Assembly: GCA_040954595.2 (NCBI GenBank)
Contig: CM082583.2
Coordinates: 3,853,060-3,917,059 of the forward strand
Length of the DNA stretch: 64,000 nt
From: Balanoglossus misakiensis
Taxonomy: Eukaryota; Animalia; Hemichordata
Direction: 5' to 3'
Shown here: positions 3,415 to 6,400 of the stretch, one piece after another
Position numbering within the stretch: position 1 is the stretch's first letter
How the letters are laid out: each line of letters opens with the position of its first letter
The notes under the pieces: generated by a model
Told to the model about the DNA's origin: nothing
The model's input: the letters and a program-made list of their open reading frames with translations, nothing else
Databases searched by the model: none
Position numbers and translations under genes: made by a program

Positions 3415-6400
3415 CTACTGACGGTACCACATGGTGATCTGTTTGCTGCGTTTGATCTTCTTTTGCAGTTGAAGGAAGCCATACAAGAGAGCTTCTGCAG
3501 TTGGAGGACAGCCTGAAATTCAACAAAGATTTTTTCAACTGGTGTTAGGAGAACATGTTGACACATCAACTATGTTATGAAAGGGAACAATCTTTACGAT
3601 TTACCGGTAACTGTAACTAAACTGGCAAGATGTTTTAAATCATTAGTAACTTCTCTCAAGGTGTCTGACTAGCCTATTTTTGACAAAATTCTTTCCCTGC
3701 CTAAAATATCAAGTTTTAACATAATCAAGATTTAGCATTTGTCTGTAAGATGCATTTTTTTTTCTGAAGAAAAGCAAAATCTCAGATCACAGATTTTGTG
3801 GTTCACACTATTTTTACACATTTGCCTTTATTCCTAAGAATATAAAATTTGGTATTAAAAGTGTTTTGCCTGAGCTCTTTATCACCAAGGTATTCAACCA
3901 ACTTAAAACATATCCCAATTTATTGAATTAAAAATGTCATTGATTTCTTTACAGCTTATCTGTCAGTGGCTTCCAGAATTAAAGGTATCAAAAATTGCTA
4001 AAATTTGCTCAGAGGTGCAGACTCATGCACACCATGTTGAAACAAGAGTCTACCACATGTAAACTCAAGTTCTCCATGGCGGCACTCAGCTCACATGTCT
4101 AGCTGATTTCAGGACCCCTGCACAACTCATCATTGCAAACCAACTAATACACACAGGAAATGATAGAAAGACATCAGAAGGGACCTTGTCAAGATGTTGA
4201 CACAAATTAATTGATAGAAAATCCTGGCCATGTCCGGGTCTGGGAATTGAACCCACACCCCTCCGTTGGGAGTCCGGTACCCTGACCACTAGGCCACGAT
4301 GCTCCCTACACTTGATCCATCCACAATATTGAAACAATGAGGATGGAGCAAACAGCGGAATATTGATATTTTTGGTACTAACCTGGAACATAAATATCCA
4401 CCGGGATAATTCGATCACAACCCCTGACAACTGAATATGAATAGTGGTAATAGCCTCCGCCATTGGCACAACTGAAACAGACAATAAATTCAGCTTTAAC
4501 AATTGAATTTTCTTTTATACATACATGCATGCATACACACATAAAGTAAGGATAGCTGGAGCAACAGTAGACGGTATAAACTCTACAACATTACAGTGAC
4601 TCTTGAAACAATGTGGTAGAAATTATACCGCCTACCATTTCTCCAGCTACCCTTACTTGAAATTCCGCTCTATTTTAGTATCAAACACTTTGTAATGGAC
4701 CAGTCAAACCACATATTCTGCAAATAGAGGCATAAGATATTGTAAATACCTTCCCATTGAAACAACCCATCGTGGCTCTGGCATTTGGTCGTAGACTTTT
4801 CTTAAGGCAGGTGCCATTTTGTTTGTTAAGGTACCAGCTACAATCATGACATCCGACTGACGAGGACTTGCACGGAACACAATGCCAAACCTGTCCATAT
4901 CATATCGTGGGGAAGCAAAATGCATCATCTCCACAGCACAACAGGCCAATCCAAATGTCATTGGCCAAATTGAACTCTGTTTGAATTAAAGCAAAAACAT
5001 ATGACATTAGTCTAATGCTTGGAAGAGTATTCAAATGGGACTCCCTATGATAAAGATTAAACCTATATTTCTGAGGAAACTTGAAGTTCAGACTTGAACA
5101 GGCCTACTCTTATTAAAATGCTGCATGTAGTCCCATGAGTTCTGTGGCAAACACACACATACTGAAGGTACAAATAAATACACATGGGTGAGTGCGTTCC
5201 TAAGAATATGCATACACATGTATCTCTATCATGGCTGTTTTCCACGCATTGTTTTGTTCATGTACTGTTAATTTGCACATCATTTCTGCACTCGGCATAG
5301 AATGTCACACATTTTCAAGTGACAGACCTTCAATGTTGACTCTTTCTGAAGTTCAGCTGAATTCAACTATAATGATTGTTTTTGACAAGCCCCATAGACA
5401 AACTACACTAAATAAGTACAACTTGGCAAAAGGGTAAAATTTGAAACGAGAGCGCTTGTCAAATGACAACTTTACATATGTGCAGAGTGCATGTTGTACT
5501 ACTTTACCAGGGTTCACTGCAGCCCTAAACAGCATTACGACCACCAATGCTATCACTGACAGCCACTACTGTATGCCCCCACCCCCCTGCTTGCTATCAT
5601 GTATACATGGGATGTATTGTATTTATTAATCCATTAGCATACTCACACGTCTGGCCCAGTTCGCAATATCATCAAGTCTAGCGATGACATAATCTCCAAC
5701 GTTTGATTTTTTGGCAGGAATAGTGGCTGTACTCCTCTGCCTGTATGGTACAATGCTGTAGAAGATGAAATGCACAAAATTTCACCAACAATTAACAGTC
5801 ATATAATAATTTACAAACAATGTGCAAGCATGCTACACAGTAGAGTTTCATTGAATGTCAAAATTGAATGCTTTGATATGCAAAGCCACAAAGGAACAGG
5901 ATTAAAAACGAGTAAAATCACTTCACATTCCCACCAGAGTAAGTTATTTTCATCCTCAACATCATGAATTTCCATAAAGTCTCACTTTTGGCGACTGTAC
6001 ATGTATATTTAATTGTTTGTCATACAACAGACTCACTACACTGTATCATGTCTAAAATTTGCTCAGAGATGCAGACTCATGCACACCATATTGAAAAAAG
6101 AGTCCACCACATGTAAACTCAAGTTCTCCATGGCAGCACTCAGCTCACATGTTTAGCTGATTTCAGGACCCCTGCACAACTCATCATTGCAAACATTTTT
6201 GTATATACACAGGAAATTAATTAAAAAACAACACAACTCATCAGATACCACTAGGTCTGGCAAATATACAAAATTTGCAGTGACCAGCTTGTACTTTGCT
6301 TTTTCCTGCCCTTACATGTACAAGAAAAATGATCTGCAACCAAAGTCCCAAAATTTCTTTGAATCAGGTTTTCCTGAAACATGACATCATTGATTTCCAA

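What the first reader, a model, noticed from the sequence alone, without database searches (positions are those of the whole stretch)
4004..6193. Two SNORD94-like U6 methylation guide RNAs hosted in NDUFS7 introns
Seen: a 136-nt sequence duplicated in introns 5 and 2 on the sense strand, with strong similarity ending about at a TTTGC/GCAAA terminal stem. It has perfect C, D' and D boxes, a TCAGCT..AGCTGA internal stem, and substitutions that avoid the boxes and the D' guide. Known: U6 contains GGCCCCUGCGCAA, and the D'+5 rule points to the third C (C62 in human numbering), the SNORD94 target. As I recall it, human SNORD94 is about 137 nt, has a similar TGATGA..GCAGGGGT..TCAGCT..CATG.GAGCTGA layout and sits in PTCD3. 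Inference: an invertebrate SNORD94 that moved host (both hosts encode mitochondrial proteins) and duplicated between introns, coupling spliceosome modification to complex I gene expression. It is invisible to protein-level annotation.
Basis: partly seen in the sequence, partly recalled or inferred. Interest (0 to 1): 0.8.

Follow-up and report, generated by a model that had tools for sequence, protein, structure and literature searches.

The report
Duplicated U6-methylation guide in NDUFS7 introns
Two introns of this marine invertebrate's complex I gene NDUFS7 each hold a near-identical copy of a small guide RNA gene matching vertebrate SNORD94, predicted to put a methyl mark on the splicing RNA U6; relatives in other animals often sit in other genes and in several copies, so this is an ordinary, unannotated family member.

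Summary
Observation confirmed. Two 136-nt copies (130/136 identical) lie sense in NDUFS7 introns 5 and 2. Both match Rfam SNORD94 end to end (54 bits, E 5e-11), just under the gathering score of 60, so routine annotation misses them. The D'+5 rule points at U6 C62. A metagenome scan gave 19 further copies in 13 distinct loci with one shared layout: C box, guide, D', a covarying hairpin with an invariant UG loop, a long hairpin, D box. Hosts: PRP8 (6 loci), cytoplasmic dynein (2), PTCD3-like (1), short-exon hosts without a protein match (2), unresolved (2); 4 of 13 loci carry several copies. Host change and duplication are therefore routine for this family, and coupling to complex I is not supported. 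Two leads: both hairpin loops read AUGUG, like the LARP7-binding loop of 7SK, and the guide's 5' half pairs with the pre-D strand. Expression, this organism's U6 and genome-wide copy number could not be tested. Earlier scan notes (unchecked) report such guides on other DNA, including PRPF8 introns. Verdict: new member of a known kind; interest 0.3.

The parts
4004..4139 (-). snoRNA copy A (NDUFS7 intron 5), SNORD94-like box C/D RNA gene, 136 nt
   Evidence: Rfam RF00613 53.5 bits, E 7.1e-11, model 1-137; family model 92.3 bits, a training sequence
4127..4133 (-). copy A: C box AUGAUGA
   Evidence: sequence
4113..4125 (-). copy A: D' guide, 13 nt, antisense to U6 58-70; D'-5 faces C62
   Evidence: against U6 55-68 as printed in PMC13109388
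4109..4112 (-). copy A: D' box CUGA
   Evidence: GA invariant in 18 aligned copies, but GA was part of the search pattern
4086..4106 (-). copy A: short hairpin P1 (6 bp) with AUGUG in its loop
4025..4085 (-). copy A: long hairpin P2, capped by a C-AUGUG-G pentaloop (loop 4054-4058)
   Evidence: folding; Rfam consensus has the same CAUGUGG
4020..4026 (-). copy A: degenerate C' candidate (GA at 4023-4024, foot of P2)
   Evidence: GA at the foot of P2 in 17 of 21 copies, 6.5 expected; inferred
4015..4020 (-). copy A: pre-D strand predicted to pair with the 5' half of the guide
4009..4012 (-). copy A: D box CUGA, 496 nt before the 3' splice site
6058..6193 (-). snoRNA copy B (NDUFS7 intron 2); C box 6181-6187, guide 6167-6179, D' 6163-6166, P1 6140-6160, P2 6079-6139, D 6063-6066 (307 nt before the 3' splice site)
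   Evidence: Rfam RF00613 54.0 bits, E 5.4e-11
7626..7638 (-). NDUFS7 coding exon 1 (ATG at 7638)
6485..6623 (-). NDUFS7 exon 2 (likely presequence)
   Evidence: frame and splice sites
5647..5755 (-). NDUFS7 exon 3
4750..4976 (-). NDUFS7 exon 4
4383..4471 (-). NDUFS7 exon 5
3415..3512 (-). NDUFS7 exon 6, to the stop codon

Best explanation
Two paralogous intronic box C/D snoRNA genes, likely the orthologs of vertebrate SNORD94, are predicted to be cut from NDUFS7 introns 2 and 5 and to guide fibrillarin to 2'-O-methylate U6 snRNA at C62. Shown from sequence: position, boxes, guide register, full-length Rfam match, a family-wide layout. Inferred: splicing, debranching and exonucleolytic trimming release each RNA; the terminal stem (6-7 bp) helps assembly because both copies lie far from the 3' splice site; only the D' guide works (the C'-D spacer is too short and not conserved); LARP7 likely docks on an AUGUG loop and loads U6, displacing a short intramolecular pairing between the guide's 5' half and the pre-D strand. 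The pair likely arose by DNA-level duplication between introns; NDUFS7 likely serves as a housekeeping source of transcript, with no special link to complex I.
For: Rfam SNORD94 is the best family, full length, E 5e-11, and the only snoRNA hit at E<=0.5 in 64 kb. Guide pairs U6 58-68 without a gap (9 Watson-Crick, 2 G-U), D'-5 on C62 (U6 numbering from PMC13109388); SNORD94 targets C62 (PMC6894857). 19 further copies in 13 loci share features not in the search pattern: P1 hairpin (88% of 108 cells paired, all 6 pairs with two-sided changes, slid controls 29-51%), invariant UG in its loop, U before the D'-1 position, D box. All 9 loci with an identified protein host hold the RNA in sense in an intron. 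Bodies are 95.6% identical while flanks beyond 60 nt are at shuffle level. 7SK loop A310-G314 is AUGUG and G312/U313 decide LARP7 binding (PMC3632141); LARP7 binds SNORD94 (PMC11863803).
Against: 54 bits is below Rfam's gathering score of 60. No evidence of expression was obtainable and this organism's U6 was not seen. Both D boxes lie 496 and 307 nt from the 3' splice site, against an optimum about 50 nt before the branch point (PMC8162545) and 64-81 nt in 8 of 19 relatives where the heuristic gave a usable site. Substitution pattern alone is not significant: boxes and guide missed with chance 0.23; 4 of 5 changes at paired sites keep a G-U pair where 57% of transitions would, and one breaks a predicted pair. 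Copy B folds no better than shuffles (z -0.93). The guide/pre-D pairing fails in 3 of 18 copies, among them the vertebrate-type L064. One copy could be silent.
Confidence: 0.88

Rival explanations
1. Same RNAs, but the host matters: NDUFS7 (like PTCD3) was kept as host because it ties U6 methylation to mitochondrial biogenesis.
For: NDUFS7 here and a PTCD3-like host for L064 (mS39/PPR hits, E 6.5e-6) are both mitochondrial: 2 of the 4 protein-coding host genes identified. Unchecked scan notes place fungal U6-C62 guides in NFS1, also mitochondrial (recalled); a lead only.
Against: 8 of 13 related loci use PRP8 or cytoplasmic dynein and 2 more use hosts without a protein match. snoRNAs move between introns and genes routinely (PMC6984369) and their levels often do not follow the host (PMC10557570 passage). 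The metagenome sample is small and biased to whatever animals contaminate such assemblies.
Confidence: 0.12
2. Only one copy is active; the other is a recent or gene-converted duplicate on its way to decay.
For: 95.6% identity with diverged flanks also fits conversion or recent insertion; copy B has more G-U pairs and folds at z -0.93 against -2.46 for A.
Against: Both keep all boxes, guide, stems and loops; multi-copy arrangements with intact copies recur in 4 of 13 loci.
Confidence: 0.2
3. The RNA guides a different target (an rRNA site, or a neighbouring U6 cytidine) rather than U6 C62.
For: This organism's U6 and rRNA were not available; the run of four G allows slippage along C60-C63 in principle.
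Against: The ungapped register is fixed by the flanking A, C and U pairs; the spacing between guide and D' is the same in all 18 aligned copies and in the Rfam consensus.
Confidence: 0.05
4. A SINE, MITE or other repeat that happens to resemble a snoRNA.
For: Genome-wide copy number could not be counted (no genome held); the window does contain other small repeats.
Against: Only 2 copies in 64 kb, both sense and intronic; no poly(A) tail or target duplication visible; conserved, covarying relatives in distant animals.
Confidence: 0.02

Closest known systems
SNORD94 (U94; Rfam RF00613), vertebrate box C/D guide for U6 Cm62
   Same: Length 136 vs 137; C-guide-D' spacing and target C62; UCAGCU/AGCUGA hairpin; CAUGUGG and CAUGAG blocks; terminal stem; intronic in a mitochondrial-protein gene.
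   Different: Canonical D' CUGA instead of CGGA; guide UUGUGC instead of UGGCGC (one G-U pair, no bulge); host NDUFS7; two copies; 300-500 nt from the 3' splice site against 66 nt in L064; AUGUG rather than AUGGG in the P1 loop; 54 bits, below the gathering score.
Invertebrate U6-C62 guides found here in metagenome contigs (L007, L008, L009, L022, L031, L038, L051, L052, L074, L078, L087, L092)
   Same: C box, guide, D', P1 hairpin with UG loop, long hairpin, GA at its foot, pre-D strand matching the guide, D box; often multi-copy.
   Different: Mostly shorter (104-144 nt), mostly short terminal stems, no AUGUG at the long hairpin's tip, hosts PRP8, dynein or short-exon genes; 22-36 Rfam bits or no hit.
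LARP7-dependent U6 guides SNORD7, 8, 9, 10, 67 and the 7SK SL4 hairpin
   Same: U6 target class (PMC11863803); an AUGUG loop closed by C-G as in 7SK SL4 (PMC3632141).
   Different: Other U6 positions; LARP7 binding to these copies is untested; the papers that define LARP7 binding on snoRNAs (Hasler 2020, 2021) were not held.
Drosophila scaRNA:Prp8
   Same: A snRNA-modification guide nested in a Prp8 intron (PMC4053861).
   Different: H/ACA class with a CAB box, unrelated to this C/D family.

Membership tests
box C/D snoRNA | C box RUGAUGA near the 5' end and D box CUGA near the 3' end, joined by a terminal stem | tested here: met
   stem 7 and 6 bp
box C/D snoRNA | internal D' and C' boxes | tested here: inconclusive
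   D' is perfect; C' is degenerate, only a GA at the foot of P2 in 17 of 21 copies, 6.5 expected
box C/D snoRNA | sense location in an intron of a transcribed host | tested here: met
   NDUFS7 introns 2 and 5; gene model from sequence only
box C/D snoRNA | accumulates as a processed RNA bound by fibrillarin, NOP56/58 and 15.5K | not testable with these tools
   needs small-RNA-seq and pull-down
SNORD94/U94 orthologous group (U6 Cm62 guides) | 10 or more nt antisense to the U6 ISL before D', with C62 at D'-5 | tested here: met
   11 contiguous pairs to U6 58-68 as printed in PMC13109388; the organism's own U6 not seen
SNORD94/U94 orthologous group (U6 Cm62 guides) | homology outside boxes and guide (P1 hairpin, CAUGUGG, CAUGAG blocks) over the full length | tested here: met
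   model positions 1-137, E 5e-11, best family; alignment with the 118-bit L064
SNORD94/U94 orthologous group (U6 Cm62 guides) | required for Cm62 in vivo; bound by LARP7 | not testable with these tools
   AUGUG loops present but binding is inferred
Rfam RF00613 as curated | score at or above the gathering threshold of 60 bits | tested here: not met
   54.0 and 53.5 bits; so not an Rfam-annotated member, though it works like and is likely orthologous to SNORD94
SINE/MITE | many dispersed copies in either orientation | tested here: inconclusive
   2 copies in the 64-kb window, both sense intronic; whole genome not held

The most novel reading that the evidence does not exclude
SNORD94 is a pan-animal family, ancestrally nested in PRP8 (the protein that cradles U6), built as a closed switch: the guide is half masked by the pre-D strand and opened when LARP7, docked on a 7SK-mimic AUGUG loop, delivers U6. 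These copies carry that loop twice, in the ancestral short hairpin and at the vertebrate-type tip of the long hairpin, and so catch the LARP7 docking site in the act of moving along the deuterostome line.
Probability: 0.25. Interest if true: 0.55.

Novelty: new member of a known kind. Interest (0 to 1): 0.3.

Why it matters
By itself little: a divergent SNORD94 that falls 6 bits under Rfam's cut-off. The wider result is more useful. U6 Cm62, which with Cm63 licenses m2G72 in the catalytic stem-loop (PMC13109388, passages), appears to have a guide across animals that Rfam mostly misses (1 of 16 loci scanned passed the gathering score). The alignment exposes conserved parts (UG loop, guide/pre-D pairing, GA foot) that can be mutated directly to ask how LARP7 loads U6 on its guides, and gives a seed for a wider Rfam model.

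Tried and rejected
Rfam at gathering score: 0 hits in the window. Whole genome: none held, so no copy count and no U6. Sequencing runs: no RNA holder listed; this is no evidence either way. NDUFS7 as host of relatives: tblastn of exons 4-6 against 16 candidate loci gave nothing (best E 0.94). The P1-loop AUGUGAG as C' box: rejected, its GA is not conserved while UG is. A second (D) guide: rejected, only 3-4 nt are conserved before D and they track the RNA's own guide. 'Substitutions avoid boxes' as proof of selection: chance 0.23; the stricter figure of 0.018 does not apply because one change breaks a predicted pair. 94 of 109 pattern loci were dropped as chance matches, most resembling bacterial coding DNA; of these, L100-L109 were not scanned with the model, the others scored 37.5 bits or less against 61.8 or more for kept copies (kept copies were mostly training sequences). 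L017 (33.4 bits) is borderline and was left out; L006 was considered and dropped. Amino-acid identities include off-frame matches and are not used. The splice-site heuristic failed or chose a wrong AG for 11 of 19 relatives. Atlas search did not place the organism. PTCD3 does not occur in the two SNORD94 papers searched for it, so the human host remains recalled. Hasler 2020 and 2021 were not held. No earlier scan note matched by sequence or place.

Full report
Observation. The only long direct repeat in window 1-12000 is a 143-nt pair, 3998-4140 and 6052-6194, 96% identical. Read on the minus strand, each holds a 136-nt unit (4004-4139, copy A; 6058-6193, copy B) differing at 6 positions. Each has a UUUGC/GCAAA terminal stem (7 and 6 bp with flanks), C box AUGAUGA, a 13-nt guide, D' CUGA, a 6-bp hairpin, a long hairpin and D box CUGA. 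The box-plus-guide pattern occurs twice in the window and never in 100 shuffles. The host is NDUFS7: exon 4 matches solved NDUFS7 chains at E 2e-46, and six exons with GT/AG ends give a 224-aa open frame, putting B in intron 2 and A in intron 5. A neighbouring CLCA exon finds 4 proteins among 114 candidates, all from hemichordates (54-61% identity), so the organism is likely a hemichordate or another ambulacrarian; this is weak placement.

Identity. Rfam at its gathering scores finds nothing in the window. At E-value threshold both copies match SNORD94 (RF00613) over model positions 1-137 with 54.0 and 53.5 bits, E 5e-11 and 7e-11, against a cut-off of 60; a whole-window scan at E<=0.5 gives only these two plus one weak miRNA hairpin. 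The match extends beyond boxes and guide to the UCAGCU/AGCUGA hairpin and the CAUGUGG and CAUGAG blocks. Against U6 55-68 as printed in PMC13109388 (passages) the guide pairs 58-68 without a gap, 9 Watson-Crick and 2 G-U, and the fifth base before D' faces C62. SNORD94 guides Cm62 in human cells (PMC6894857, passages). This organism's U6 was not seen (no genome).

Relatives. A degenerate C-box/guide/D' pattern gave 109 metagenome loci. By eye, 15 had a hairpin with an AUGU-like loop after D', which was not in the pattern; two are duplicates (L039 of L038, L082 of L052), leaving 13. Eighteen copies (2 window, 16 from these loci) align with an invariant UG in the loop and an invariant D box (I set the 3' ends at a CUGA). 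The short hairpin covaries: 88% of 108 cells pair, all 6 pairs show two-sided changes, 0 of 500 shuffles reach the covariation score and slid controls pair 29-51% (relatedness is not corrected and the structure came from these sequences). A model from this alignment, run on the window and 99 of the 109 loci, gave 24 hits at 61.8 bits or more and then a gap to 37.5; three were copies outside the training set (two in L007, one in L092), and the window holds no third copy. In all, 19 non-window copies in 13 loci. Rfam saw SNORD94 at E<=1 in 8 of 16 loci submitted and only L064 (118 bits) above the cut-off; the window copies are the best-scoring after it.

Hosts. Pfam on sense-strand frames of 38 aa or more within 2.5 kb (267 of 299 frames; L006 and one L009 frame not sent) and flanking splice sites give: PRP8 for L009, L022, L038 (two introns), L051, L052, L078; cytoplasmic dynein heavy chain for L008 and L074; a PTCD3-like PPR gene for L064 (mS39 E 6.5e-6, just under Pfam's cut-off); short-exon hosts without a protein match for L007 (3 copies in successive introns) and L031 (2 copies); unresolved for L087 and L092 (3 tandem copies). 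The PRP8 loci are 71-82% identical in DNA where they overlap, so distinct organisms or paralogs, and the four tested score best against human PRP8, so likely animals. L009, L078 and L022 use the same intron position, as do L038 and L052. None is in NDUFS7. Movement between introns and genes, and extra copies, are the documented norm for snoRNAs (PMC6984369, passages).

Mechanism. Shown: anatomy, register and conservation. Inferred: release by splicing and trimming as for other intronic C/D RNAs (PMC10557570, passages). The D boxes lie 496 and 307 nt before the 3' splice site, far from the optimum near the branch point (PMC8162545, passage) and from the 64-81 nt of 8 relatives; the longer terminal stems here (7 and 6 bp, against 0-4 bp in 17 of 19 relatives) may compensate. 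A GA at the foot of the long hairpin (17 of 21 copies, 6.5 expected) is the likely remnant C' box, leaving too short a spacer for a second guide. The pre-D strand can pair with the 5' half of the guide in 15 of 18 copies (shuffle mean 2.4, maximum 8 of 5000), and tracks the guide type: 11 of 13 UGUGC-type and 4 of 5 GGCGC-type copies fit their own guide best; L064 and both L092 copies do not; folding probability is 0.69 or more in 12 of 18. Both loops in the window copies read AUGUG; the tip loop with its C-G closing pair equals 7SK A310-G314, whose G312 and U313 decide LARP7 binding (PMC3632141, passages; PMC10083321 section 11), and LARP7 binds SNORD94 (PMC11863803, passages). That LARP7 uses these loops is inference; I recall that a LARP7-binding motif in U6 guides has been described, but those papers were not held.

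Are both copies live? Bodies are 95.6% identical; the first 60 nt of flank keep at most weak similarity (9 and 84 of 1000 shuffles score as high) and beyond that none, which fits an old DNA duplication under selection, or conversion. The substitution pattern is compatible with selection but not significant (0.23 for missing boxes and guide; 4 of 5 paired-site changes keep a G-U pair where 57% of transitions would; one breaks a predicted pair). Copy A folds at z -2.46, B at -0.93.

Prior knowledge. Searches for SNORD94 (61 papers, 40 listed), for U6-C62/RF00613 terms (3 papers), for U94 with host gene and invertebrate, for snoRNA with hemichordate/amphioxus/sea urchin and for scaRNA with Prp8 showed, from listings and the passages read, no description of an invertebrate SNORD94 or of NDUFS7 as its host; the library lacks most subscription papers and I read no supplements, where snoRNA tables usually sit. 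Drosophila scaRNA:Prp8 is an unrelated H/ACA RNA (PMC4053861, passages). In fission yeast the guides for C55-C57 were not found (PMC10484740, passages). Earlier notes of this scan (unchecked) report U6-C62 guides in PRPF8, NFS1, EHD1 and Sec1 introns of other genomes.

Verdict. Real, very likely a functional SNORD94 ortholog pair; new member of a known kind; interest 0.3. The family-wide structure and the PRP8 hosting are the more interesting by-products.

Noticed in passing
L009:3890-4033, L078:548-690, L022:407-522, L038:4840-4961 and 3913-4031, L052:698-818, L051:3920-4031: SNORD94-like guides in PRP8 introns of six distinct animal sequences, three at the same intron position: a U6-modifying guide nested in the gene of the U6-binding spliceosomal core protein.
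   Followed up: partly
L007:1213-1889 (-), L031:625-1050 (-): Three and two copies in successive short introns of genes with tiny exons and no Pfam match: probably non-coding snoRNA host genes.
   Followed up: partly
L092:90-1165 (-): Three copies in tandem units of about 475-480 nt with no splice sites found by the heuristic; could be an array of independent or polycistronic genes.
   Followed up: no
L017:299-398 (-): Borderline, AT-rich, short candidate (33.4 bits with the family model, no Rfam hit); possibly a more distant member.
   Followed up: no
window 674-1024 (+): Exon of ribosomal protein uS19/RPS15 (Pfam E 9e-22), tail to tail with NDUFS7; the two genes are also close neighbours on human chromosome 19p13.3 (recalled), suggesting old microsynteny.
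   Followed up: no
window 4216-4300 (-): tRNA-like element in NDUFS7 intron 5, about 80 nt upstream of copy A, with A- and B-box-like motifs; weak tRNA-Sec Rfam match (E 4.2), not called by ARAGORN, single copy in the window; likely a tRNA-derived SINE remnant.
   Followed up: partly
window 1570-1672, 3095-3253, 4544-4658: Three long near-perfect hairpins (MITE-like inverted repeats); the first recurs at 49309-49343; the third lies in NDUFS7 intron 4 and gives unspecific miRNA-precursor matches far below gathering score.
   Followed up: no
window 7638-8400: NDUFS7 starts head to head, within about 800 nt, with a plus-strand gene whose large 488-aa exon (8482-9948) has no Pfam match; probable bidirectional promoter.
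   Followed up: no
window 13600-58000: Other genes by Pfam: C-type lectin, myosin motor (-), VWD protein, SAC3/GANP (-), CLCA (+); a 457-aa frame at 60105-61478 has no match.
   Followed up: no
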